A stretch of 64,000 bases of DNA. It comes from Raillietiella orientalis (Eukaryota). Location of the stretch: positions 1,798,001 through 1,862,000 of the forward strand of contig JAYWIR010000032.1 of NCBI GenBank assembly GCA_036172245.1, given 5' to 3'. The translations under genes were made by a program, and so were the position numbers. Positions 1 to 58,330 of this stretch are shown piece after piece. The first letter of the stretch is position 1. The number at the start of each line of letters is the position of its first letter. The notes beneath the pieces are model-generated. The model saw nothing but the letters and a program-made list of their open reading frames with translations. It made no database searches and had not been told where the DNA came from.

Positions 1-306
1 TGGGCGGTGGATTTCTGACGTCAAAGCTCCAGGTAATCCAACATCCCCTACGTTCCTGGAATCGCAGGCGAGCGAGCCTGGACCCTAGTAGTTTCTCGGA
101 GACGTTCCCGCGCATCCTTGGGGAGCTCTGCACGTATCCTCAAGGTCACCGTGTCTTCCGAGAGGACGTGACTGAAGGAATCTCGTGACCTTGAGTGACT
201 TCCGCTTGGTATCCTCACTCGAGACGGCTCGAGAGAGCACCTGGCGGTCTCTGCCGGAGCTTCGAGTGGCCGGACGGCGGAAGCGGTCGCGACTGCATCT
301 CAGCGG
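1..306. repeat. Left arm of a perfect inverted repeat (partner 2070-2375); truncated by the window edge
   Basis: Base-by-base comparison: 1-306 is the exact reverse complement of 2070-2375. Confidence 0.97.
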
Positions 307-821
307 TGGAACGGGCGCATGATGAACGATCTGCTTTCTTCTTTTCGTCTCCATGAGGACCACCCACGACTTTCGTCGTCGGAGTCCTTCCCGACGTGCT
401 CCTCAGGGACGAGGTGACCTGGAAGCCTGGCAGTAGCACCGCATGACCACTGTCCACCTCTATGTGATCGGACGGGCACGCGTGAGTGTTCGATGGGAGA
501 AAACGTAGACCAAGAACCATCCGGAAAGCAAATTTATCGGGATGCTTAGAAAGATGGATGGCCCGAGGCGGTGTCCAGACTTGGATTTGGATTCCTGCCG
601 CGAGGTCTGTCGGGGCGATTTCAGGAAGTGGGATCGCTCACCCCCGATCTTACCCCCGTTGCTGCGGCTACGGGCTCTCGCCTACAGGATCCCGATCCCA
701 GCGTCCGAAGACTACTCAACCTCGCCAGCTTCCTTTGCTGGGCTTCTCTCAGCCCTCGCGTCGTTTCCCTTCCCTCCCCTTCTTCCTCTTCTTCCTCCTC
801 CTCCCTGCTCCCGGGACTCAC

Positions 822-961
822 CTGGGACGAATCCTGAGGTCCGGCGTTTCGCGCGGAGCTGAACAGCATGTTGGCAAGGTACCCGGGCAGCTCCCTGAGA
901 AGGTCTTCCGGTACGCGGATCGCTGGAACGTCGGCCGACTCCGCCTGGAGCTCGGCGAAAG
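822..961 (-). CDS. PlexB: Plexin-B coding exon 13 (start of cytoplasmic region)
   Basis: Splicing to actttccag| rebuilds the conserved KQ-AFAELQ; donor CAG|GTGAGT after 822, phase 0. An alternative in-frame acceptor exists at 1021. Confidence 0.82.
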
Positions 962-1167
962 CTGGAAAGTCGCGCGGGAAGTGACGTCGCTCAGAGCGAC
1001 AAAGAGAGGTCTGTGGCCCCGCTGCAGGAGAGGAAGGAAGAAGGGAAGAGAGCAGCTCGGGAACGCTTCCTCGCTTCCCCGGTCGCATTCATGGAGAATC
1101 TCTTCCCCCCTTCCCCCATTGGGAGCACCGAATGTGACGTCACCGCCAGCGCATACCCCCTGCTCAC

Positions 1168-1588
1168 CTTGCTTGTATTCCATGCCGACTATCTGCTCCA
1201 GGGATTCCATCTGGGACCTGATGGACTTGAAGTCCCGCTTCGCGCGGACCGACTTGCAGACGTACATCGACAGGGAGAGGAGGAAGAGGAGGAGGGATAG
1301 GCTGGCTCCAGAGATGATGGCGACGGACGTCAGCACCGAGCCGTCCTCGGTCGGCCTGTCTCCGTACTTTAGAAACCCCAACGGGAACTTCAGCGTGCCG
1401 CCGATCTTCAGGACGACGAGCGGTAGTGCCTCCGCGGTCTCCCTACCGTCCTCGTCGGTCGGAAAGGGCTGGTGCTGCGGGGGGACGCACAGGAGCCGGC
1501 GGGCCGTCAGGAAGGTGACGTTGCACGGCGACGTGCCGACGGTCACCGACACGTCGTCATCCTCTGCTGCCGCGTTGAGGCGGTCGCC
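1168..1588 (-). CDS. PlexB: Plexin-B coding exon 12 (last IPT, transmembrane helix, juxtamembrane)
   Basis: GDRLNAAAEDDDVSVTVGTSPCNVTFLTARRLLCVPP...TM segment VAIISGASLSLLLFLLSLSMYVC, then KSVRAKRDFKSIRSQMESLEQIVGMEYKQ; preceded by a 74-nt intron; donor G|GTGAGC, phase 1. Confidence 0.92.
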
Positions 1589-1662
1589 CTTCGGGGGGAA
1601 ACCGAGAAAGGGAAAGGAGCGGGGCACTTGTGGGTCTTAGGTGAGCGGCCCCCGCTACTGAC

Positions 1663-1935
1663 TTCGATGACCAGGGAGTCCCCGCTGTACAGCTTGATGG
1701 GGTCGGAGAACCGAAGCACGATGGGATCCTCCACGTAACGGATGCGGTAGCTCGTCACGATGGTGTTTCCGGCGCGGCCGTCGCTCGTGGAGAATCCGAA
1801 GAGGAACGTCGATCCCAGTCTCTGTTGCTGCTGCTGCTGCTGCTCCGCCCTGCTGGCGCCGTTAGCCGTTAGCTCCAGGTCTCCAATGGGAGGGGAGATG
1901 CACTCCATCTCCAAGTCGCCGACCACCTCGCAGGT
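1663..1935 (-). CDS. PlexB: Plexin-B coding exon 11 (IPT, 91 codons, includes a Q7 run)
   Basis: TCEVVGDLEMECISPP...YVEDPIVLRFSDPIKLYSGDSLVIE; acceptor gttctcctccag|, donor GAA|GTCAGT. Confidence 0.9.
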
Positions 1936-2069
1936 CTGGAGGAGAACGGGAGACCGATGACCTCAGTGCAGCGCCTTCGGGTGAGAGAGATCCGCACCCC
2001 GTGGTTTCGGAACGGGGGGGATCTTCCGCGCCGGTCTACCTCCCTACGATCACATGATATCTCTTCTCG

Positions 2070-2375
2070 CCGCTGAGATGCAGTCGCGACCGCTTCCGCC
2101 GTCCGGCCACTCGAAGCTCCGGCAGAGACCGCCAGGTGCTCTCTCGAGCCGTCTCGAGTGAGGATACCAAGCGGAAGTCACTCAAGGTCACGAGATTCCT
2201 TCAGTCACGTCCTCTCGGAAGACACGGTGACCTTGAGGATACGTGCAGAGCTCCCCAAGGATGCGCGGGAACGTCTCCGAGAAACTACTAGGGTCCAGGC
2301 TCGCTCGCCTGCGATTCCAGGAACGTAGGGGATGTTGGATTACCTGGAGCTTTGACGTCAGAAATCCACCGCCCA
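2070..2375. repeat. Right arm of the perfect inverted repeat (partner 1-306)
   Basis: No mismatch over 306 bp; inner boundary at the 2069/307 mismatch. Confidence 0.97.
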
Positions 2376-2569
2376 CGAAAGGATGGTTGGGGTGAGGGTT
2401 TGAGCATGCTGAACACTGGAGATGTGGCATGCCGCGGGATGGGTGGTTCCCCTCACCCCGTGGCGTACCGGCGCGGAGAGACACGCGCGTTTCCTCGCCG
2501 CATATCTCTCCGAGGTTGCATTACCTCCCTGCTTTCCATAACAACCCATCCCCTCTCTCGGGAGGTGAC

Positions 2570-2830
2570 GGGTTTCGTGACCCAGCGTTCGGTTTTCCCA
2601 TTCCACGTGGCCCACTGGGAGAGGTCTGACGAATGAGGCAGTTCGACGCTTCGGCGACCGAGACCGCCCGACCCATTCGAAGGTTGAGGATAGGTCGAGG
2701 CCATTTCTCCTCCAAGTGCTCTCTGATGGTTCGACTTGAAAAACAAGACTCCGCTGTTTCCTCTTTCTTCGAGGCGACCCTGCCAGACTTTAAGATGATG
2801 ATCATGATGGAGGAGGCGGTGGAGAAGACC
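2570..2830. repeat. Diverged dispersed repeat family C (second copy at about 7755-8010)
   Basis: ataggtcgagg(c/a)catttctcct.caag.gctctctgatg.ttcg and taagatgatg are shared with 7860-7980 in the same orientation. Confidence 0.75.
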
Positions 2831-3559
2831 GACGGCCGGATCGTAGGGGCAGCGGGAGTGAAGAGTGCGCAGAGCGCGATGGAAGTAGACTGTATCCGGA
2901 TGACGTCCGGGGTCCGAGCACCCCATGGGTACGAGTTCATTGCAATTCGGGAGAGACCCCCGCAGAGGACATCGTCGTCATTTCAACAGAGAGTTCCCAG
3001 AGGGCAGACTCGGTGCGCTGGCGAACTTTGGATTCGCCCTGTTAAGGCAAATCTATCCGCCAACGGACGTGTGCCTCCCTGCCTTCCTCCCCCGTCCCCA
3101 TCGTGAGTGCTTCCAAACAGGTCAAGGAAACGAGAGGACCGTGGAAGATCCACCTCTCCCTTTTGCACCCATCCGTGCGCTGCAGGTCCCGGGTGGAACC
3201 TTCGGAGGGAGAGAGCAGCCGGAAGCAGGAGACACCCGACGAGTAAGCCTGTTGACCCGCAGCAGCAGCAGTGGTCATTCTACAGCACTTCTCAGGACGC
3301 CACCTGGACGCTCTTCCGACGGTGCTCTTCAGCGACGACTGGAATTTTCCCCTCGGTTGTGTCTGCTTTCCTTCACCTCTGCCCAGAGACAAGAGGTCCA
3401 GCAGTTTCCGCATCCGGAGGTCCCATCCCAAGGGGGAGAGCGACGTCGGGCCTCTCTCCCCAAGGTCAACGGCCCTCCCTCGCTCCTCATCCCTTCGAGG
3501 AGTGGGGCGAAGGAGTTGCAGCTGACCACTACCCTTTCATCGTCCAGGAGGAAGGATTG

Positions 3560-6099: not shown

Positions 6100-6516
6100 C
6101 ATCTTGCCCACTGGTTTTTCGTTGCCGTCGTGGAACAGAAGCATCTCCGGCCTCTGGATGGACGCAAACGACTTCCCTCTCACGTGTATTAGCCGCCCTC
6201 CCGAGTTGAACGAAACGAGCGGCTCTATCTGGTGTATGACTGGGTCTTCTGTGTATTCGAAGTGCACATCGGTCAACACTCTGTAAGCCTGGTCAATCCG
6301 CACGGCTATTTCGCATCCCTGGACCGGACTCGGAGAGCGAGTCGTTGTGCAAATTATCACCGTGGAAGATCTCTGGACGGAATTGACCAGGCAGGGCAAC
6401 TTTCCGACGGACACTTGGAGTTCCGAACCGATGTTGAGGTTCGCTCCTTTGATGTGTAGCTGGGTGCCGCCGCTCTGAGGTCCTCTAGCTGGGTACGCAC
6501 TGGTTAAGCTCACATT
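6100..6516 (-). CDS. PlexB: Plexin-B coding exon 10 (IPT domains, 139 codons)
   Basis: NVSLTSAYPARGPQSGGTQLHIKGANLNIGS...FEYTEDPVIHQIEPLVSFNSGGRLIHVRG; acceptor gtgattttag|, donor ATG|GTAAGT. Confidence 0.93.
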
Positions 6517-6817: not shown

Positions 6818-7754
6818 CTTGCAAACAATACATCAACAGATTAGGGGAATTTTTCCCCACAGCAGAAACGCAAGATGACAGCGGAAGAACAAATCAGGAG
6901 ATCAGAAATAGAAACTGAAGGTCAGCAGAAAATGGCTTTGAAATTCGTGCCTTCCTCAGGGATGTAGAGAACCCTCGAAATGCAAGGAAGGGACAATGGA
7001 ATAGAGGATTGTCGTTGACTGTTCTCGTCACGATTTCTATTTATCTTCATCGATTTCTCGACTTCCTTCTACTCATTCTTTTTCTTTCTCCGTGTGCGAG
7101 CATCCTTCATCTTTTTTGAACTGGACCGAGGGGTGGCGGAGTTTTTAGCAGAGTTTCGATCGGCAGAGGAAACAGTAAGTATTGGCATTTGTGTGAAAGG
7201 TAGCAGGACGATTAGTTGAGTGAGCCATGCTGAAATTTGGCTTGCACCCATCCTCCTCATCACACCTTCGAGTGTTTGCCCCCACACCGCAACGACCTGG
7301 GCTGACGAAGGCTCCAGGCGCACCCTCTTCCTACTCGCTTGGAACCTACTGTCTTACGACGATGAAACGCCAGAGGGCAGGAAAGGCTCTGGGGTTGAGA
7401 TGCCTTTCTGCTCTGTGGTCGAGTCCTATTCTCGAACTTTGAGTGGGTGAGACCTCTGGCTTGAACATCGAAGCTCGCACTGTCGGATCCATTAGTGACC
7501 CCTAGTGAGCTCAATTTTGATGAGCAGAACTGACGCTGTGGGAGGAGCCGAACGGTGGGTCACAGGAGTCCATCAGACCCATGGTAGGAGTGGGTTGCCA
7601 CGGAAAGCAGGAGCGAGGCGATCATAGAAGTTGGAATCCCCTGAGGAATGAGCAACGAATGGTCTCTGTGGAAGCAATTGATCCTGCGCGGGTACAAAAA
7701 ACCGTCCCTAAAGGTCGGTTCCTTCTCCCGAAGCAACTACTCCTTGGGGGTATC

Positions 7755-8010
7755 ATAACCTAACGTTCGACTCCCTTTTTCCCTTGCATTCTGGTGGCGT
7801 TTTCTGATGAGATGGAACTGCCTAACTTCAGCGACCGAGGATGTCAGACTCGTTCAAAGGTCGAGAATAGGTCGAGGACATTTCTCCTACAAGCGCTCTC
7901 TGATGATTCGCCTTACAGAACGAGATTCCCTTTTTTCGTTCCTCTTCGACGATGCCCAGCTACTCTAAGATGATGGCAGTGGTGGTGACGGAGTCAAAGG
8001 TCCAGCTGAT
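7755..8010. repeat. Diverged dispersed repeat family C, copy 2
   Basis: Aligns by eye to 2570-2830. Confidence 0.75.
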
Positions 8011-31900: not shown

Positions 31901-33754
31901 AAGAGCGGCGGAAGAGGGGGGGAGGGACTCTCATTTCATCCTAATCTTCGAAGAAAGGCTTGCGTACGTCGCAGGCCGGAAATGTCTCTTCCTTTTTCTC
32001 TTGTGTTTCGCGCCTCAGGATAGCAGGCATTCTTCACGCTTTTCTGGTCCGTTTCGCCAAAGTACCCCTTCGGGACTTGGAAACTGCGGCGTTGCATCAA
32101 CAGAGTTTTCTCCTACAAAACTCCCTCCCAAAGCGCTTCTTAGGTAAACAGGAAGGAGAACAGGAAACGGGTTTCGATTCCCGGAGGGTGTGTGCAGGGG
32201 AGCTGGGAAGGTTCGGGACACCATTTCCTCCTGGAGCATCGGACGTCGGCATGGCAGTATCCAGGGAGGTGGAAGGATGCAGAAGAAAGTTTCCTACTGA
32301 GATCTTTGCTGGTGGCCAATAAATGAAGCGTGGAGAAGAAGCAGGCGCCTTGAACGGCTACGGTGGATTCCTTGGGTGCTACCGGACTGGCTACCGCCGG
32401 CTGCACCCGGAGACTGAGCGTCAGGTGGCGACGGCGGTGGAGCGCGCGGCGAGGGGAAAGCGGAAGAGACGCCCAAGCGAGTCGCCGAACCTCGACGTGA
32501 GACGAAACTGCCGTGCTTGGAGGCAGTGCTTTCGTGCTCCCTTTCCTCAGATCTCAGCGCCCCCTTCCTTCCTCATCAACTCCGAACAAATCGACTCCTC
32601 AAATTTCTCCCGGTAATGTGAAGTCATCTAGCAAGTCGTCGTTTCTCCCCCGTAAGTGTGCCTCTTTAAAGTTGGCATCATGGAATGCCGGTGTACAGGA
32701 AACGAAACAAAAGTAACTTCGTTACGATTGTTAAGGAAGAACAGAGACCATGAGCGTAATTATGGATTTGAGTAAAGGCGCAACATCAAAGATTATCATT
32801 TACTACGGCGTCGCAACAGCCCTCTCAGGAAATATCAAAGCCATCTGGGAGAAAGAGAGAGGAAAATCCCTATTATGAAATTAGACTTTCAATAGATCAA
32901 AAGGACTCTTCGCCTTCCTGTACATCCCAGCATTCGTAAATCGAGTCTTTCGGAATGTTTCCTTGTGGCGTCATATAGTACTCGCCAATCTCGGTTTTCC
33001 ATGATGAACCACTAAGTCTGGCCACGGGAAGCTCGCCGAAAAGCAGTCCGCCGACAGGAACTCCCGCAATTTGTTTCGATGGTAGCTTTCCTTGTAAGCG
33101 ACAAAGCAAAGTCAGGTGCAAGTAGGAAACGGCTGCTAATGGCCGATGGCTCCTCTCCGGCGCAGAAGATCTGCAGTAGTTCGAATAAAAGGGGACGAAA
33201 AGGGGAGGAGGGAGGAAAAGACGCTGGGGGAAGAGACAGGCTCCTGCACGGTTTTCTGCCTCTTCGAGTCTCACCGAGGAATGCAGCTCTCCTGCCGGAA
33301 TCCCAGAAGACCAAGAATCGGTTCGCCACGGTCGAATCTGCGTCCATTTCTCATGTTCAGACAATTTCTTGGGGCCTTCCGCTATCTCGTTTACTGTTCC
33401 GATCGACGGTTTACGGGTAAGCCATGTTCACTTTAGACTTTCCGACTCAACGCCGCTTCGGATTTCTCTCGTCTGTTTCCCGCCACTCTTTCCTCAGGCT
33501 GTTTTATTCATGCTTATCCAAATTCAGGAGTTTAAGTGGCCGGTTTCAGTTTGTGGCTGAGCGAAATTCGAAACTAGGAGTCAAGTCACGATGCGAATGG
33601 CTGGCTGGAGCACCACATGGCACCATTGCTAGAAAGAGGTTGTCAACGAGATGCTCGAAACGTTCGACAAAGACTTTCGTTCAAAAAAGAACAAGCTTCG
33701 ATTCGTCGGTAAAAAGAACCAAGAGCACTAAGAGATGGAGCGGCTCCCGTTCTG

Positions 33755-33898
33755 CATTGTTGCCCGTTCTTGTGCTGGTGTCGCATTGTTGCCCGTTCTT
33801 GTGCCGGTGTCACATTGTTGCCCGTTCTTGTGCTGGTGTCGCATTGTTGCCCGTTCTTGTGCCGGTGTCTCATTGTTGCCCGTTCTTATGTCAGTGTC
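33755..33898. repeat. 29-bp minisatellite, 5 copies
   Basis: Unit cattgttgcccgttcttgtgc(t/c)ggtgtc(n) starts at 33755, 33784, 33813, 33842 and 33871. Confidence 0.95.
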
Positions 33899-35549
33899 AT
33901 AAGACGATTGTGCGCCCCAAAATGAAAAAAGATAAAATAAATGCAAAGGATGGAAATTTTTCGGATGGAAATTTTCAGTTGAACACAACGTGTGTTCTCT
34001 TGAAAAGCAAGCACTTTCACGAACAATGTACGGCTTCTGGCATTTCCGTTCCATTATAAGATGAAGACGTCGGCGCACGAGCTTCACGCTCATTTGCTCG
34101 TTTCCGACCTCATTTGAAATCACAGAGGTGGCTCTGAGGAGTCGACAGTCTCATGTTCCTCCCTGCGTGGATCACCAGGAGGGTAAACTAAGGTCTACCC
34201 CGGGTGGCAGCGAAGGAAACAAACAATTGACTCAAGAAGGAAGGATCGCTCCCAAGAGGGAATCGGTTGCGGTCATTTCGCTTTTCGTGACCGTGCTGCA
34301 GGCCACGAGCGCAAACGGTGCCAAGGACGACCCAGGCTCACCATCGGAGCATGCCAAGGACTAGTGACAGTGGGAACCTTCCCACTAACTGCGAATGTGG
34401 AATTACAAGCTCAAGCTGCAAGGGTGGGCGACCCACAATTCTCCCGCACTGCTGCAGGACCAAGGATCGCACCAGATGCGAGTCCACCACCGGGCTCTGG
34501 ACGCACGCACAGATAGCGCGCATCACCGCTGGCGAAGCGATGGGATCTGCACGGGCAAGGTTCGGACATCCGACCTTGAACCCGCCAGACATCGGGACCG
34601 TCCCATGGAGGCCTGAACTGCTGCCAGGGATCCAAGACCGCCTCCTGATGCTTCGTTACGGAAGGATGCTGTGCGGCACGAGTCTCCAGCACTGGACAGG
34701 CAACCCGAATCGCGCCGTCTTCCCGGGGCACGGAAGGTCGACTCCACGTGTTCAGGGAGAGGGTTTCCCTTATAATGCAGAGGATGTGCGTTATAAGGTA
34801 CCATACGACGATATACGACCCCTGTATAGGAGCGAAAATACGGTAATGTCATAAGAATATAAGCAGACGTCATCACACGCGCTCCCGGAGGAGATGACTT
34901 AGCAGTTGGCGCTCACGCTCGAAGGACTCACTCGAAACCTGCATAACTCCCTCCCTGGACCGGAAAGTAGTCAAACGAGAGGTGGGATCGCTACCCGAAG
35001 CCGGAATCGGCCTCCTCTGCGGACTCTTTTGAGGAGAAGGCGTCGTTCCCTTGCATCGTGGCCTGGCCTTCTTCACGATGGACTTAAGGCAGGAGTGAAG
35101 AAGCTTCCAGGGGTGTGCAGGCCAGCGCACGCGAGACAAGAACGGTTCTCCTCAAATGAGAGGTGGGCATAAAGAGGCTGCGGCAGAGCGCCGGCCTGGA
35201 TCATCTCCCACCTCTGAAGGGGATTCAGGAAAGGCTGGCTGGTTCTCGGCACAGTCGGACTACAAAGGCGCAGTGGCACGCGGTGAATGGAAGATCCACC
35301 TTTCCCCTTCCCTTCCCCTCCCAACCCGTGCTCCACTTCAGCTTCTCTCCCCTCACTTGCACATAAAAACAGAATCTGACTCCGAAGGATATGACTCGAG
35401 CGGTTTCGAGTCAGGGACGAACTCTATGGCTACAGTTTTGTACCCCAAACGTAGGATTTTGAAAGCAAAATAAATCCACCTTACTGACAATTGGACTCAG
35501 GAATTCCCATTCGAATTACTTCAGCTCTATCGGATATAAAGTCGCCTTC

Positions 35550-39600: not shown

Positions 39601-41455
39601 GTAGCCGAAGCCACAGATCGCTAGTGGGATCGAAGCTCCCCAGTGCGATGTTTTCGTTTTTTCGTCTCTGCGCCTCCGAGTCGCTGCTCGATCCTCAATT
39701 CGCCATTCATTTGTATACGACCTTCTTCAACCTTCGTCACGAGATGACAACGAGCCGGAGCTTCCCGAAGACACTCGACACTTGAAGACACTTGTCCTCC
39801 AGTTCCCACAAAGGGAGCGGAATGCCGACAAAAGAGAAGTCTGCCGTAACGCTCCTTTCCCGAGACGGTCGCTACGGCAGCCTTGGACGATCCTATCGAG
39901 GTGGGGATGAGCTTTGGCGAAAGCTCCTCCTCAATGGCAGAGTTCGGAGAACTTTGGTGTGTCCTCCGCATCCTCCGTGCCCCATCCCCACCAGACTGGA
40001 AGCGAAGTGACCCGCCCGCGACTTCAAGGCGGTGCAGAATTCACAATCGGGGCCACGGGGAATAGCTTTCGACGTTTTCGAGAGCCAGGAATTCCACACG
40101 ACCCCTCCTCCTAGCGGGAACATTTCATACCGACTTCATCTTTCCATGCCCACTCTAAACACTTCCTCCAAGACTCTCTTTCTAGAAGTTCCCATTTCTA
40201 GAAATCGAGTGAAGGGCTACCAGACACTTCACATCTGCAGACCTAGGGCAGAGCGAAGAGGAGATCTGAAGCAGAAGAAAAATAAATTTCGGTGCATTCA
40301 GTCTCCAGTGGCTCTCTCAGATTCCTCTAGGGCTTATAGACACCAAGGCAAAAATAGCCATCGAAACGGATGAGACTCTGATAACCTCCCTATCTTTCCT
40401 GTTAATAGAGGGTGGGAAGTGGAAAACTTCCACTCAACTAGCGAGGCCAGGAAGGCGATCTTCCCGTCCTCCGTCCTCGTGGCTCCGAATTTCTGGTCCA
40501 CAAAATGGAACCAGATGAGCAGAAGGCGTAGATTGAAAGAATCAATGAGACGCTTCTGATCAAGACAGGTCTCCTGGAAAGCTGGAGCTTGTGTCTAGGA
40601 AGTAGGAAGGACTTCGAAAATTGTTTTGTGAACCAGCATCTGTGCTCATGGAGAAGGGACGGTGTTCATGAGAAGAAGAAAACATCAACGAAAAAAAAAA
40701 GGACAAGAACAAGAACGGGCAGAACAAGAACAGGATGAACGAGAACAGGAAGAATAGGAAGTAGCAGAAGACGATTCGAGAGATACGCAGAGCAGCCGGA
40801 GGCAAGGTCCTTTTCACTTCCTCCCTTTTTTATAACGACGGTTTGGTACGATTTTACGGAAATGAGCGTCTGAAGAGAGGTTGAAGAGGACGCTGAGGAG
40901 TGGATCCAGATGGCATGGCCAAGCGCGCGTGCCCACATAAGCGGATATGCGGGATGCACGTGTATGGGTTAAGTGTGGGTGGTTTCAGAACGGAAATTCG
41001 TTAAACTTCATATTAACTGAGGGAACTTGAGGCAAGAACTTTCAGGGGGCGAGGCACTGGACAGCCCCTCTGGTGCGGCAGTCCTTCCCTTGTGCGACAG
41101 GCGCGCGCAAGGGAAGAAGGAAGATTCTGGAAGAGATTCCCGGATGTGGATGGATCCTGTTCCCACGTGCGAGGGTCAGGTGGGATTGGGGTGAGGGTGC
41201 TCGTTTCCACGCGGAACGGCCAGGCCCAGGCTCCCGGTAGTCCTCCGGGATACCGGAACGCGCGTCGTGACCTTGCAAACTGAGCGGGTGGCGCAGTAGC
41301 TAGACCTCTCTCGGCACCGAACGAACCACACGCGTGGCGCACTCCGCGAGGACGGCTGGCACCTTGACAGTCTCCACGGAGGAGTCCGACCGTCGCAAGA
41401 AGAAGAGCTTCCATCCCTTCCGGACAGAGGTCGCTCTAGGAAAGGACGTACGTAC

Positions 41456-42324: not shown

Positions 42325-42600
42325 TCTTCTAGCTTGGCTCTCTTCGGCTGCAGCTGCTTCTCCTCCTGTTCTTGTTTTTGTTCTTCCATGCTTGCTCTCT
42401 TTCCATGTTCTTGTTCGTCTCCTTCTTCGTGTCCTTGCTGTTTTCCTTCCTGATGTGCTTCTTGTTCTTTTGCTTGTCCTCCTTGTTCTTCTAATGTGCA
42501 TTACACTATCCCTCTTCCATGAGCATAAGTGCTGATCCACAATGAAATTCCTGTTACTGTTCTTCTTCTTCCTGTTTTCCTTGTTGTTTTTTTTTTCATG
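42325..42600. repeat. Pyrimidine-rich (TTC/TTG/TCC) low-complexity tract
   Basis: Repeated ttcttg/ttcttc on the plus strand; a shorter mirror aagaac tract lies at 40670-40770. Confidence 0.8.
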
Positions 42601-43174
42601 GACACCGTTTCTTCATTATGAGCATAGATACTGGTCCACGAAGCAACTTTTCGGGTCCCTCCTGCTTCCTGGACACGAGATCCAGTTTTCCAGGAGACCT
42701 GACTTGATCAGAGGCACCTCATTGGCTCTTTGCATCTACTCCTCTGTCGTTCTGCTCATCTGGTTTCATTTTATGGACGTAGAATTTGGAACCACGAGGA
42801 CAGAAGTCGGAAAGGTCGCTTTACTGAGTCCTCTCGTCAGTCTTCCTCTGTCCTCTCGTGCATAGCGCACCCCTTCTTCACTCCATCGCCTTCAAGTTCC
42901 TCTCACGAAATTTCTGGGAAGTTTCCAGCGGCTTTCCGAAATATGAAAAAGTACGGCTATTCGCGCATCGGTATTGCCATCCTCGGTGCCTCTTCCAGCT
43001 TCATCCAGATTTCCTTGCACCTGGATAGGCGTGGAATATCCTCGTGACTCCCTCCTGGAAGACCTCTTGTCGTGCAGCTCCCTCCCATTTCGGCACTAGG
43101 GTGGAAGAGGGCTTCATTCCGCCCGTGCATCCCTCTGGCATCTGCGCTAAGCTCAGTCCGCGCTGCATAATCAC

Positions 43175-47400: not shown

Positions 47401-48739
47401 TGAATTTCAAGTTTCATTAGAGCAATACGGCGGCGCGTTCTTCCGCTCGTGTAGGAGCATCATCCACGACGTTTCGGAAGTCGGAATTTGAGACGTAGCT
47501 TGGAGCTTCAGATGCAATAAAGGGAAGGATAGAAGACGGGATCACTAACTCTCCACGAAGCACCATCAGTGTGGGATCTGCGGCTCGAGGTGCTCTTGTT
47601 TCTTTAAACATCCCGCAGACACATTTCGCAGCTACACGATCCGGTGTTTGAAACAGGAAAAATGTCCTACTGGAGGCGTGATCCACTTACAAAGTGACGC
47701 CGGTGGTTCACCATCCCTACTGCACGGATGTCCATAGCCCAGCTGCTGAAGTTAACTGTGAGGATCTTCCAGTGCCAGTTACTTACGAGCTCATCCTTTC
47801 AGAGGAAATGTCGGAACACAACAAAAGCTGGAGAGCTGCTGCTTGCATTGCTGAGGCAATTAGTCAGTTCCCTCCGCAATCAAGTCAACCAGAACAAAGT
47901 TAAACACTTGCAACTTAGTTCCGAAAGATTTCGAGATAAACTTGCGATTCGCAAATGAACTCCTATAAACCTTTTTTTTTTTTTTCAAGATACGCATCTC
48001 AGAGCCATCGAACATGAGCTTTCCCCCTGTACACGTGCTTGTGACGTGTCACGCTTTTCTTAATTCATTGCTAGCGAGTGTGCGACCGAATTCCCGTGTT
48101 AGGACTGTACGAACAGCAACACAGAGCTGGAACGAGGCGATGTAACCTCGTCCTGGGAAAGCAAAATCTCGTCACAGACATCGACGCGTGCTGCCTGTTG
48201 GAACGCCCAGAAGCAGCATACGCAGGTGAACGAAAGTGAGTCGCGTGCTTCCCTTCCCTCTTTCAGTAACTCGAGAGTCATTTCTTGTGATTGTCACCGG
48301 CTTTTCCGTGCTAAGAGTCCTTAGCTCAGCCAGCCTGCAGCACTTCCTATGTTATAAGGCGGACCTTTAGCTCTGAACAACCGAGGTCATCATGCAGAAC
48401 TCACCCTTCAGCGACCTCACACTCACTTAAGAGTGTCTTCTCTCAAATCCTCACTGTGAATAGCAAAGTCACTATGAACCCTTCCTTGCCAATTTAGCGC
48501 ACCCAGTACGTGTGCACTTTAGTAGACAAATGCACGTTTTTCAATATACAGGGTGAGCGGTTTACAACCGGCGTTCTACGCTCCGGCTACGCTACGTTTC
48601 TCCGAGAAGTCAGATTTCGTGAAAAGCGATTTTAAACAGGGGTTTTAATTCGTTCACCCTTAGAATGTGTTTGTGTTACGAGGAACATAGAAGAATTGAT
48701 GAAATGCAATGATGCAGCAAGATCTATCTTAAGCTACCC

Positions 48740-49580
48740 ACATCCAGGCGCGCTGCATTTCGCCACATGACGTCAGCAAGACAAGGCTTCAGACGGGTCG
48801 GTTCCAAGCCGCTTGCCCTTTATTTTAGACTGCATTGTTGCCCGCCGTGCTGCCCGAGCAGCTAGACGTCACGCCGCGAAGCCGGAAGCGGCGCGACTCC
48901 AGCCTCTTCCCAGCCGCTCGCCCTCCATTTTTAGACTGCATTGTTGCCCGCCGTGCTGCCCGAGCAGCTAGACGTCACGCCGCGAAGCCGGAAGCGGCGC
49001 GACTCCAGCCGCTTCCGAGCCGCTCGCCCTCCATTTTTAGACTGCATTGTTGCCCGCCGTGCTGCCCGAGCAGCTAGACGTCACGCCGCGAAGCCGGAAG
49101 CGGCGCGACTCCAGCCTCTTCCCAGCCGCTCGCCCTCCATTTTTAGACTGCATTGTTGCCCGCCGTGCTGCCCGAGCAGCTAGACGTCACGCCGCGAAGC
49201 CGGAAGCGGCGCGACTCCAGCCTCTTCCGAGCCGCTCGCCCTCCATTTTTAGAATGCATTGTTGCCCGCCGTGCCGATCGCGCACGCTGACGTCAGGGCG
49301 CGGCGCCCGTTCGCGGAGCGCGCGCGCTTTTTCGAACTGCGCGAACGCTCGTGCTCGAAATCAGCGAGGTTGGCACCTCGGCCCCGGAGGGCGCCGGCGA
49401 TCCACGTGCGCCGAGCAAAGAGAACTTTGGCGGAAGACGCGGACTTGCAGCTTCGTTGGTTAACCTTGGTATTGACCGAGTTCGGTTTTTATCCCTCGCG
49501 CATTTCCTATTGTCATAGGAGCGAGCGACATGAAAACCGACCCGCTGAGTCAAGGCTCTTTACGATTGCCCCACTTGAGG
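48740..49580. repeat. Left arm of a long inverted repeat, containing a 106-bp tandem array
   Basis: Reverse complement of 55503-56020; the ORF track shows mirrored, near-identical peptides (MTQRVGF... versus MTQRAGF...). Confidence 0.95.
48803..49276. repeat. 106-bp tandem repeat, about 4.4 copies
   Basis: tgcattgttgcccgccgtgc recurs at 48831, 48937, 49043, 49149 and 49255, an exact 106-bp period. Confidence 0.97.
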
Positions 49581-55502: not shown

Positions 55503-56020
55503 CCTCAAGTGGGGCAATCGTAAAGAGCCTTGACTCAGCGGGCCGGTTTTCATGTCGCTCGCTCCTATGACAATAGGAAATGCGCGAGGGATAAAAACCG
55601 AACTCGGTCAATACCAAGGTTAACCAACGAAGCTGCAAGTCCGCGTCTTCCGCCAAAGTTCTCTTTGCTCGGCGCACGTGGATCGCCGGCGCCCTCCGGG
55701 GCCGAGGTGCCAACCTCGCTGATTTCGAGCACGAGCGTTCGCGCAGTTCGAAAAAGCGCGCGCGCTCCGCGAACGGGCGCCGCGCCCTGACGTCAGCGTG
55801 CGCGATCGGCACGGCGGGCAACAATGCATTCTAAAAATGGAGGGCGAGCGGCTCGGAAGCGGCTGGAGTCGCGCCGCTTCCGGCTTCGCGGCGTGACGTC
55901 TAGCTGCTCGGGCAGCACGGCGGGCAACAATGCAGTCTAAAAATGGAGGCCGAGCGGCTCGGAACCGACCCGTCTCGAGCTTGTCTTTCTAAATCATGTG
56001 GCGAAATGTAGCGCGGCTGG
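55503..56020. repeat. Right arm of the long inverted repeat, with about 1.4 copies of the 106-bp unit
   Basis: cctcaagtggggcaatcgtaaagagcc... is the reverse complement of ...ggctctttacgattgccccacttgagg ending at 49580; the outer ~90 bp are more diverged. Confidence 0.95.
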
Positions 56021-57479
56021 AAGTTGCTCATCCTGTGATAAATAAACCCAAATTTGGCTTCTGGTCGGAATGCAGTCTTCTTGCAGAAGTCACTGATCAG
56101 AGGCTCGAGCTGTCTCTGTTCAGCAGCGAGCCCTTGCTTTCACTGCAACTCGTTCGCGCATCCAAAAGGGAGGAAGTGGGATTGGCACCTCTGCACAGTG
56201 ACGATGCTTTTCGGTACATTATTTACATGCATGATATGAGCGTTCTCACCGCTCTTCCTATTCAGCGGACTCCACCCTTCGATCTTTTCGCTTTCATCCC
56301 GTTCCCATAGAACCGACACAAGCATGCCTGCTATTCCACTTCTTGCAAACCCACATGCAGTTACTGGATGCTAAAAGCAGCATGCTTCTCGAATTACCAG
56401 TCAAGCAACAATGCAGCAAGATTTGTGCACGTATTCGTGGCTACGCGACAAGAGCATGCACAGGCATTAGGGGAAGAAATCGTGACAGCTCCACTGAGTT
56501 ACCCTTGAAACCAAGACGCCAGCGTCTTTTCAACCAACTGCCGGAAGGTGAAATTCGCCACGAAAGTCCTCCATCCGAACGGGGCACACGAAAAATCACT
56601 TTCCCGTGATTGGAAAAAAAAGACGCTCAAACAGCGCTCCAAGAAAACACATGCCTCTGGTTCGCAGCTGCTGTGAGATGCTGTTTCCTTTATCCTTCTT
56701 CTCTGTATCTTCTTCCAAAACACATTGTTGCAACCGTGATCAAAAAAGTTACACGGCTCCACCGCTCAGAGTCCCGACATCGAGGCGATCCGTATCCGCA
56801 TGGAGCAGACGATGATAACTTCCTGTTTTTCCCGAACGCGCCCGCGAACTGAGTCGGGATTTTCGTCGCTGATGAAAAGCGGCTTTTGACAAATAGCATG
56901 TGTTGGAAGCGGCAGCGGAGAGTTTTAACGAGATACAGCAATTCGGAATGATTTTTTCGTATGATAACATTCTATTGCGGGAACGATTGGACGGAAACCG
57001 TTGCAAGTGGACGTTGGTCGGGCAAGGTTTCTGGAAGGGAGAGGAAGAAAAATTTAATTTTAATCACACGAAAATGAGCAGGCGAAGGAGAACGATTCCG
57101 GTTTTCCCCTTGGGTAGCATCACAATAGCGGAATCAACTCTGAGTGTGCCGCTAGCATAGGAAGATGAACTCCCTAGCTCAGATAGGCGAGTCATCTACG
57201 TAGAATAAATAAGCAAAGAGGGGGAGGACCCGGGAATGGATGGGAACTGCGAGAGGAAAGGGATTTCCAGAAATTTCGCCCGATCTGTCCCATGGTTCCG
57301 TCTCCGTGTTGTGCGCCTCCCCGGCCACAAACCTGCCTCTTGCCATCCAAGATACGCCATGCTCCTCTCACCCAGACTCTTGTTGCTTGGGGTGCGTTCG
57401 GACAAGAGGCTCAGTTCCAATACTAGGTTTCCTGGATGACAACCGTCCGACGTGAAAAAAGGCCCAGTAGATCAATGGG

Positions 57480-58330
57480 AGTGGGATGGATCGACGTAAC
57501 GGTGACGGTCCACGACGGCAGACGCCGGCGTCGGCAAGGGATGGCAGGGAGGGAATGTCCCCCGGTACAGCGTGGTCTGTCCACAGCTGCCCCGAGGCAG
57601 TTGGAGCGAGGATGACGACGAATGTCCTCCTATGTCGGCAGCCGCGCTCTTCTCACACCGAGGCTTCCGCTACTCCCCGCAGGTAACAGAAGCGAGAAGA
57701 CCACCTGTGAGTCCGAAGTTTTCGTTTCATCAAAGTCTTGGCAGCGGACGACCGCAAGCGGCGCGTACTTTGCCTTGCAGGTGACTCTGTCGACCTCGGA
57801 CTGGATGTCGGGAGGGTCGATTTCGGCAGTGTGAGTTGCCGAGTGAGAAGACGACGGTGGTCTCGAAGACTTTCGTTCCAGCTTCGACCCTGTGCGACTG
57901 CCTCGGCAGCTTTTCCCTAGCCGGAGCCTTGAGGATGGTGCGCACAGAAATGGCAGGCAGACCTGAACGGCTCTGCCTTCCCTATCTTTCGGCTGGCAGA
58001 GCACCATGTTCGAGCCTTGGCAGGTTCCGTTTCCTCGAGGAAGAGCAAACGGGAGGAGACGAGAAAGGCTGAGGCGTTTCCAAGGATGGGTTCTCCTGGT
58101 GCGAACCGAGGAAGAGGCTGCTCGCTGACCTGGTGGGCGGAGGGAGAGTTTGCGCCATCCCAGGCAATCGGCTGTGGAGGGCGAGAAGCGAGAAGTCCAC
58201 CGGCGAGTCCGAAGAGCGGGATGCATCATTTTCGCATGCTGCTGAAACGCAGGTCCACAGAGTCTGGCGTATCCCGAGAGCACGCGAGGACTATTCTTGC
58301 AGTACTGTGATTCCTTGAGTGCCGTCGAGG
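57480..58330 (-). mobile_element. Degenerate LINE ORF2 fragment (CR1/L2-like, downstream of RT)
   Basis: EIDPPDIQSEVDRVTCKAKYAPLAVVRC...VFSLLLP resembles IDxxLxFxxHVxxVxxKAxxxLxxxxR...YxSLxxP; RTWCSAS lies upstream in another frame. Confidence 0.4.

What the first reader, a model, noticed from the sequence alone, without database searches (positions are those of the whole stretch)
1..2375. Perfect inverted repeat of at least 306 bp brackets the transmembrane exon block of Plexin-B
Seen: 1-306 and 2070-2375 are exact reverse complements, both intronic, enclosing exons 11-13. Apart from the 48.7-56 kb pair, other dispersed repeats here are heavily diverged, so this pair is very recent or homogenised. 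Seen: the block begins and ends in phase 0 and totals 273+421+140 = 834 nt. Established: complementary intronic sequences promote back-splicing and exon loop-out, and long dsRNA is an ADAR substrate. Inference: the pre-mRNA could loop out the block, giving an in-frame plexin without its last IPT domains and TM helix (a possible soluble form) and/or a circRNA. A DNA inversion between the arms is also possible.
Basis: partly seen in the sequence, partly recalled or inferred. Interest (0 to 1): 0.72.

Follow-up and report, generated by a model that had tools for sequence, protein, structure and literature searches.

The report
Conversion-polished inverted repeat inside plexin gene
Two mirror-image copies of about 770 bases of intron DNA flank the membrane-anchor exons of an animal plexin gene; they are an old local duplication kept alike by copy-to-copy repair, one of many such pairs on this contig, and nothing yet shows that they change the gene's splicing.

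Summary
The repeat is real and longer than reported: 766 bp, 97.8% identical, running 460 bp left of the window; the inner 361 bp are exact. The exon block (834 nt, phase 0/0) is confirmed. The pair is old, not recent: in its outer 100 bp the arms differ at 13 sites, more than either differs from a third local copy (6, 8), while the interior is homogenised (permutation 0 of 100,000). This points to arm-to-arm gene conversion. It is not exceptional: 14 inverted pairs of at least 95% identity lie in 404 kb of this contig, and none of 407 matches between sampled blocks reach 85%, so a young transposon is unlikely. The in-frame layout is ancestral: a paralogue without a repeat has the same intron phases. 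Skipping or a circRNA is mechanically plausible but untested; no reads were listed. The scan has already noted the same layout in other genes of this genome. Verdict: an ordinary member of a locally abundant class; the abundance is more interesting than this locus.

The parts
1..306 (.). Inner part of the left arm (intron after the TM block). The arm continues 460 bp left of the window, to G000:C32:1797541; probably the source copy
2070..2835 (.). Right arm, 766 bp, in the 4164-nt intron before the block; probably the inserted copy
2070..2430 (.). Inner 361 bp of the right arm, exactly complementary to the left arm
2523..2835 (-). Outer segment of the arm: decayed fragment related to 28S-rRNA-derived dispersed copies; has local relatives C3 (92%, 8.3 kb away) and C4 (88%, 77 kb away)
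2736..2835 (.). Unconverted outer edge: 13 differences in 100 bp between the arms
1663..1935 (-). Plexin exon 'E11', 273 nt, IPT-region sequence with a Q7 tract
1168..1588 (-). Plexin exon 'E12', 421 nt: last IPT/TIG domain, transmembrane helix, juxtamembrane segment
   Evidence: PF01833 E 6e-5; hydropathy peak 2.23
822..961 (-). Plexin exon 'E13', 140 nt: start of the cytoplasmic region
6100..6516 (-). Upstream exon 'E10', 417 nt, IPT/TIG domain; its donor is phase 0
   Evidence: (PF01833 E 2e-16)
2042..2051 (.). 10-bp sequence whose reverse complement lies at 2839-2848, so that the two flank the right arm; seen in 1 of 38 arms examined

Best explanation
[quoted passage not shown] Step 1 (inferred): a decayed 28S-derived fragment came to lie in the intron after the TM block. 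Step 2 (inferred): about 770 bp spanning that fragment and unique intron DNA was copied, flipped, into the intron 1.8 kb away, most likely by templated repair or template switching. Step 3 (shown by sequence pattern): later non-crossover conversion erased differences in the interior but not at the outer edge. Step 4 (inferred): when both arms are in one pre-mRNA they can pair; low-level skipping, circles and A-to-I editing are likely by-products, not a selected switch.
For: Topology switch: in 2523-2735 the arms differ at 2 of 213 sites and each differs from copy C3 at 18; in 2736-2835 they differ at 13 of 100, against 6 and 8 to C3, each arm with private changes (max chi-square permutation 0 of 100,000). 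Class: 14 inverted and 5 direct pairs at 95% or more in 914 kb, 2 and 1 more in a further 90 kb; 0 of 300 and 0 of 107 between-block matches reach 85%; old repeats are orientation-neutral (81 direct, 77 inverted). Across 14 inverted pairs differences sit at the edges (3.7 and 1.5 per 100 bp at outer and inner edge, 0.36 inside; direct pairs 1.33 inside). Four other arms have near-identical partners only on their own contig nearby. Direction: the left locus matches C3 over 432 bp, the right arm over 313. Paralogue with the same intron phases and no repeat. 0 of 9 other pairs with spacers under 10 kb enclose a coding-like stretch.
Against: One assembly, no reads, no related species: conversion is inferred from paralogous copies, and C3 has itself been exchanged with C4 in the interior segment. 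Inverted excess at 95% or more is not significant alone (14 vs 5, p = 0.064); the 24 vs 7 count at 85% (p = 0.003) includes pieces of the same events. Outer-over-inner bias holds in 8 of 14 pairs, is reversed in 4, and this pair supplies 13 of the 52 outer differences. Interior identity does not correlate significantly with spacer length (rho 0.39, p = 0.16). No GC excess in this pair (0.59 vs 0.58). The coding model is crude (it missed E13). The density is uneven: 0 pairs at 95% in 200 kb each of C41 and C1.
Confidence: 0.7

Rival explanations
1. A functional RNA switch: the arms pair in the pre-mRNA and drive regulated skipping of the TM block or an 834-nt circRNA, and selection keeps the arms alike.
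For: Predicted duplex of -1709 kcal/mol; arms lie 134 nt from the E11 acceptor and 515 nt from the E13 donor and spare all splice sites; block in frame, circle would hold a stop-free frame; intronic complementary matches promote both skipping and back-splicing in C. elegans (PMC8330042, passages).
Against: Phases are ancestral; many such pairs arise without enclosed exons; a duplex does not need 361 bp of perfect identity (own knowledge); the skip product fuses ectodomain to a truncated cytoplasmic region with no hydrophobic anchor; the duplex can form only after 1.76 kb more has been transcribed, so splicing of the upstream intron competes (inference).
Confidence: 0.1
2. A single recent duplication whose outer 100 bp were copied from, or later overwritten by, another template (copy C3), with no ongoing conversion between the arms.
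For: In 2736-2812 the right arm is closer to C3 (3 of 77) than to the left arm (8 of 77); C3 is inverted to the right arm and 8.3 kb away; the inner end is sharp.
Against: The right arm has its own changes in the outer segment (2741, 2745, 2789 and three near the end) where about 0.3 would be expected at the interior rate; eroded edges recur in other pairs with no known third copy.
Confidence: 0.12
3. Assembly, polishing or whole-genome-amplification artefact that created an arm or flattened its interior.
For: No reads were available to check; chimeras from amplification are mostly local and inverted (recalled).
Against: Both arms carry private substitutions placed by third copies; a step from 13% to 0.6% difference is too large for read mis-mapping; interiors of direct pairs are about four times more diverged than those of inverted pairs, while polishing ignores orientation; the exons between the arms are in the right orientation and open.
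Confidence: 0.05
4. Two chance insertions of a young transposon in opposite orientation.
For: The outer 313 bp belong to a repeat family; one other pair in the sample has a TTAA-like end.
Against: The inner 306 bp match only these two places; the arm spans a repeat/unique junction; no target-site duplication above chance; no near-identical copies between blocks.
Confidence: 0.03

Closest known systems
Conversion-maintained palindromes of primate X and Y chromosomes (PMC8981503, passages read; others seen as search listings)
   Same: Two inverted arms around a unique spacer, identity kept high by arm-to-arm conversion; arms richer in G+C than flanks in 12 of 14 pairs here.
   Different: Arms here are 0.4-1.8 kb, non-coding, about one per 29 kb on C32, some interleaved; nothing ties the contig to a sex chromosome; this pair shows no GC excess.
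Reverse complementary matches in introns flanking circularised or skipped exons (C. elegans, PMC8330042, passages read; Alu pairs and mouse Sry cited there)
   Same: Complementary sequences of several hundred bases in the two introns around an exon block; the deleted elements there were 385-1276 bp.
   Different: No circle, skip or editing has been observed here; the arms are a two-copy duplication, not members of an abundant young repeat family.
Young, adjacent, inverted duplicates of C. elegans (as summarised in PMC4546093, passages read)
   Same: Least-diverged duplicates are local and mostly inverted, older ones show equal orientations.
   Different: Those are gene duplicates scored by synonymous divergence; here the arms are non-coding and at least this pair is old and converted rather than young.
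Fold-back interaction of widely spaced inverted repeats in single-stranded DNA (yeast, PMC10164571, abstract and outline read)
   Same: Shows that inverted repeats up to 30 kb apart can pair in cis, a route that would favour inverted over direct pairs.
   Different: The outcome there is gross rearrangement, not conversion; it offers a possible route only.

Membership tests
Conversion-maintained inverted duplication | Two inverted arms with a unique spacer, low copy number | tested here: met
Conversion-maintained inverted duplication | Arms more alike than their age allows (topology switch against a third copy) | tested here: met
   paralogous outgroup only
Conversion-maintained inverted duplication | Concerted changes seen against an orthologous outgroup or in a population | not testable with these tools
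   no relatives held, no runs listed
Conversion-maintained inverted duplication | G+C excess in arms | tested here: inconclusive
   12 of 14 inverted pairs (p = 0.025) but also 5 of 5 direct pairs; this pair 0.59 vs 0.58
RCM-driven circRNA / exon-skipping locus | Complementary sequences in both flanking introns of one transcript | tested here: met
RCM-driven circRNA / exon-skipping locus | Observed back-splice or skip junction that depends on the match | not testable with these tools
   no RNA run listed
Young transposon pair | Many near-identical dispersed copies | tested here: not met
Young transposon pair | Defined ends with target-site duplication | tested here: not met
   4-bp direct match at the right arm is at chance level; outer end eroded
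Plexin | Sema, PSI, IPT domains, TM helix, cytoplasmic GAP region | tested here: met
Plexin-B (arthropod class) | Orthology to PlexB rather than PlexA | tested here: inconclusive
   The PlexA orthologue is another gene on C52 (342 vs 214 bits to fly PlexA); this gene is closer to two C41 paralogues (35-36% vs 29%) and shares intron phases with one; PSI_Plexin-B 21.1 bits is under the cut-off of 27; no tree with named PlexB was built

The most novel reading that the evidence does not exclude
Parts of this animal genome run an unusually active local copy-and-convert process that makes and maintains 0.4-1.8 kb inverted pairs about every 30 kb. Because conversion keeps the arms paired-ready long after they arose, the process continually supplies genes with long intronic duplexes, and some, such as this plexin, have been recruited to make circular RNAs or anchor-less isoforms, or to flip the enclosed exons in somatic DNA (a flip would give the same in-frame E10-E14 product).
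Probability: 0.12. Interest if true: 0.75.

Novelty: new member of a known kind. Interest (0 to 1): 0.33.

Why it matters
As a single locus it matters little: a known kind of structure with no shown function. If reads showed a regulated anchor-less plexin or a circRNA it would be a clear case of a neutral duplication recruited into axon-guidance signalling. The wider point is the class: about one near-identical inverted pair per 29 kb on this contig, strictly local and with eroded edges, which makes the genome a good place to measure ectopic gene conversion, and which sets the background against which every 'inverted repeat brackets exons' finding in this genome should be judged.

Tried and rejected
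Sequencing runs: none was listed for C32 1795001-1805000, so no reads were laid; this is no evidence either way. Rfam found nothing in the arms themselves; the 28S link rests on two better-preserved relatives. Pfam found nothing for the 158-codon open frame over the outer arm; rejected as a gene. Target-site duplications or flanking hairpins as a general signature: not above shuffled flank pairs in 38 arms; the 10-bp flanking inverted match is confined to this right arm (P about 0.0008 per arm, about 0.03 over 38). The inner junction alone does not fold (z 0.74). Correlation of interior identity with spacer: not significant. Homologue search gave only two unnamed plexins at 28-31% and the Atlas only the family, so the animal group was not determined. 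Literature searches for a comparable density of such pairs in an arthropod and for TM-skipped soluble plexins listed nothing apt by title or abstract start; with the organism unknown this is weak. No supplements were read.

Full report
Observation. Window 1-306 and 2070-2375 are exact reverse complements. The window is G000:C32:1798001-1862000 in a 210-Mb, 491-contig assembly. With upstream DNA the repeat is 766 bp at 97.8% (window -459..306 and 2070..2835); the inner 361 bp are exact and all 17 differences lie further out, 13 of them in the outer 100 bp. The three enclosed exons, their lengths and the phase 0 ends are as reported; the reading frame is open through the block and also when it is left out. 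The block holds the last IPT sequence, the only strong hydrophobic helix (mean hydropathy 2.23 against 1.17 for the best stretch left after skipping) and the first 47 codons of the cytoplasmic region. The gene is one of four plexins found; the PlexA orthologue is on C52, so this one is B-like by elimination only.

What the arms are. The inner 306 bp match only these two places in the genome (the tool warns that counts are lower bounds, but it returned 40-58 matches for true repeats). The outer 313 bp have two local relatives, C3 (92%) and C4 (88%), and two short distant ones. The distant ones lie in 28S rRNA fragments (Rfam RF02543, 329 and 338 bits), which align to both arms at 68-69% over 166 bp; such fragments are dispersed over many contigs (222 candidates, 40 scored). 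The left locus follows C3 for 432 bp, the right arm for only 313, and the right arm carries the junction between this fragment and unique intron DNA. The simplest order is that the left locus is the source and the right arm a flipped copy (inference).

Age. In 2523-2735 the arms differ at 2 of 213 sites and each differs from C3 at 18. In 2736-2835 they differ at 13 of 100, while each differs from C3 at only 6 and 8, and both have private changes. The clustering was not reached in 100,000 permutations. The pair is therefore about as old as its split from C3, and its interior has been made alike since: gene conversion. A caveat is that C3 is itself one arm of an 855-bp, 93% inverted pair with C4, so it is an imperfect outgroup; a young mosaic copy remains possible.

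Background. I self-aligned 914 kb in four blocks (C32 314 kb, C41, C52, C1 200 kb each; 0.4% of the genome). Matches of 200 bp or more within blocks: inverted 14 at 95% or more and 10 at 85-95%; direct 5 and 2; three overlapping tandem matches set aside. Between blocks 0 of 300 reach 85%, although between-block space is 74% of the total. Matches under 85% are orientation-neutral (81 direct, 77 inverted within blocks). A further 90 kb of C32, 1.1 Mb away, gave 2 inverted and 1 direct pair at 95% or more and 0 of 107 matches to other blocks at 85%. C32 thus has 14 inverted pairs in 404 kb, C52 2 in 200 kb, C41 and C1 none at 95% (5 and 2 matches at 85-95%). Some 85-95% rows are pieces of one event, and one 535-bp pair may be a transposon; all were kept in the counts. 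Four of four other arms searched genome-wide have near-identical partners only nearby on their own contig. Differences in the 14 inverted pairs sit at the edges (52 in the outer and 21 in the inner 100 bp, 0.36 per 100 bp inside; direct pairs 1.33 inside); by pair the outer edge wins 8, loses 4, ties 2. Arms are richer in G+C than flanks in 12 of 14 inverted and 5 of 5 direct pairs, but not in this one. A crude codon model found no coding-like stretch between the arms in 9 of 9 other pairs with spacers under 10 kb, and none in the arms of 18 pairs; it missed short exons.

The splicing idea. The arms could form a very stable duplex (-1709 kcal/mol) and leave all splice sites free (134, 515 and 185 nt from the nearest). 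In C. elegans such matches promote both back-splicing and skipping (PMC8330042, passages), so some by-product is likely. But the in-frame ends are not evidence of design: the paralogue at C41 1.10 Mb has phase 0 introns at the same four places and phase 1 at the fifth, and no repeat in these introns. The skipped protein would join ectodomain to a clipped cytoplasmic region. An inversion of the spacer would yield the same product constitutively, which is probably harmful and would explain why only non-crossover exchange is seen (inference). No runs were listed, so nothing here tests expression.

Comparison. It works like a miniature conversion-maintained palindrome (PMC8981503, passages) and has the layout of an RCM-flanked exon block; the bias of least-diverged local duplicates to inverted orientation is described for C. 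elegans (PMC4546093, passages). Membership of the first class is met on the features testable here; membership of the second needs RNA. The scan's notes list the same layout in UNC5, a KH-domain gene and a DPP10-like gene, and conversion or template copying as readings; these are unchecked leads, consulted after I had the density result. Searches listed no paper on such a density in an arthropod; the organism is unknown, so this is weak, and no supplements were read.

Verdict. Real, old, converted, and one of many. Interest 0.33; new member of a known kind. The regional abundance of such pairs deserves a whole-genome count.

Noticed in passing
G000:C32 1738001-2052000 and 600001-690000, against C41, C52, C1 blocks: Near-identical local inverted pairs are dense on C32 (14 in 404 kb, several interleaved or nested) but absent at 95% from 200 kb each of C41 and C1: a regional property of unknown cause.
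   Followed up: partly
L033:1232-1807, L034:1159-1839; window 7416-7677, 7839-7969: Decayed 28S rRNA fragments covering much the same part of the gene (Rfam model about 665-1450) are dispersed over many contigs at 79-94% identity (222 candidates).
   Followed up: partly
G000:C32 1722883-1723725 / 1791568-1792422: A further inverted pair, 855 bp at 93%, 68 kb apart (copies C4 and C3), linked by shared sequence to the plexin pair: a chain of local copying.
   Followed up: partly
window 57201-58321: One arm of a 1121-bp, 99.6% inverted pair whose partner lies 42.6 kb away beyond the window; only two matches in the genome.
   Followed up: yes
window 48717-49580 / 55503-56024: The second pair of the window: 462 bp at 99%, with a 106-bp tandem unit that has 70-80% relatives on many contigs but near-identical copies only here.
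   Followed up: partly
window 40448-40719 / 42550-42826: An older inverted pair (77%) inside the long intron after the Sema exon of the same plexin.
   Followed up: no
window 2042-2051 and 2839-2848: A 10-bp inverted match flanks the right arm; before insertion the site could have formed a small hairpin. Unique among 38 arms.
   Followed up: partly
G000:C32 1933883-1934417 / 2033378-2033910: A 535-bp, A+T-richer pair 99 kb apart that begins with TTAACCC, resembling a piggyBac end (recalled label); may be a transposon rather than a local duplication.
   Followed up: no
G000:C52 246007-246593 / 248180-248766 / 100483-101061: Whole members of an old 580-bp repeat family (about 72% genome-wide, 1084 candidates) are 96-99% alike only to local copies.
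   Followed up: partly
window 822-44182 (-), C41 1.10 and 1.44 Mb, C52 0.27 Mb: Four plexin genes; this one is the most diverged (about 30% to solved plexin cytoplasmic regions) and has a Q7 tract in E11.
   Followed up: partly
L003:2558-2634: Weak U4 snRNA match (33 bits, under the cut-off of 46).
   Followed up: no
window 33726-33899: Tandem array of a 29-bp unit.
   Followed up: no
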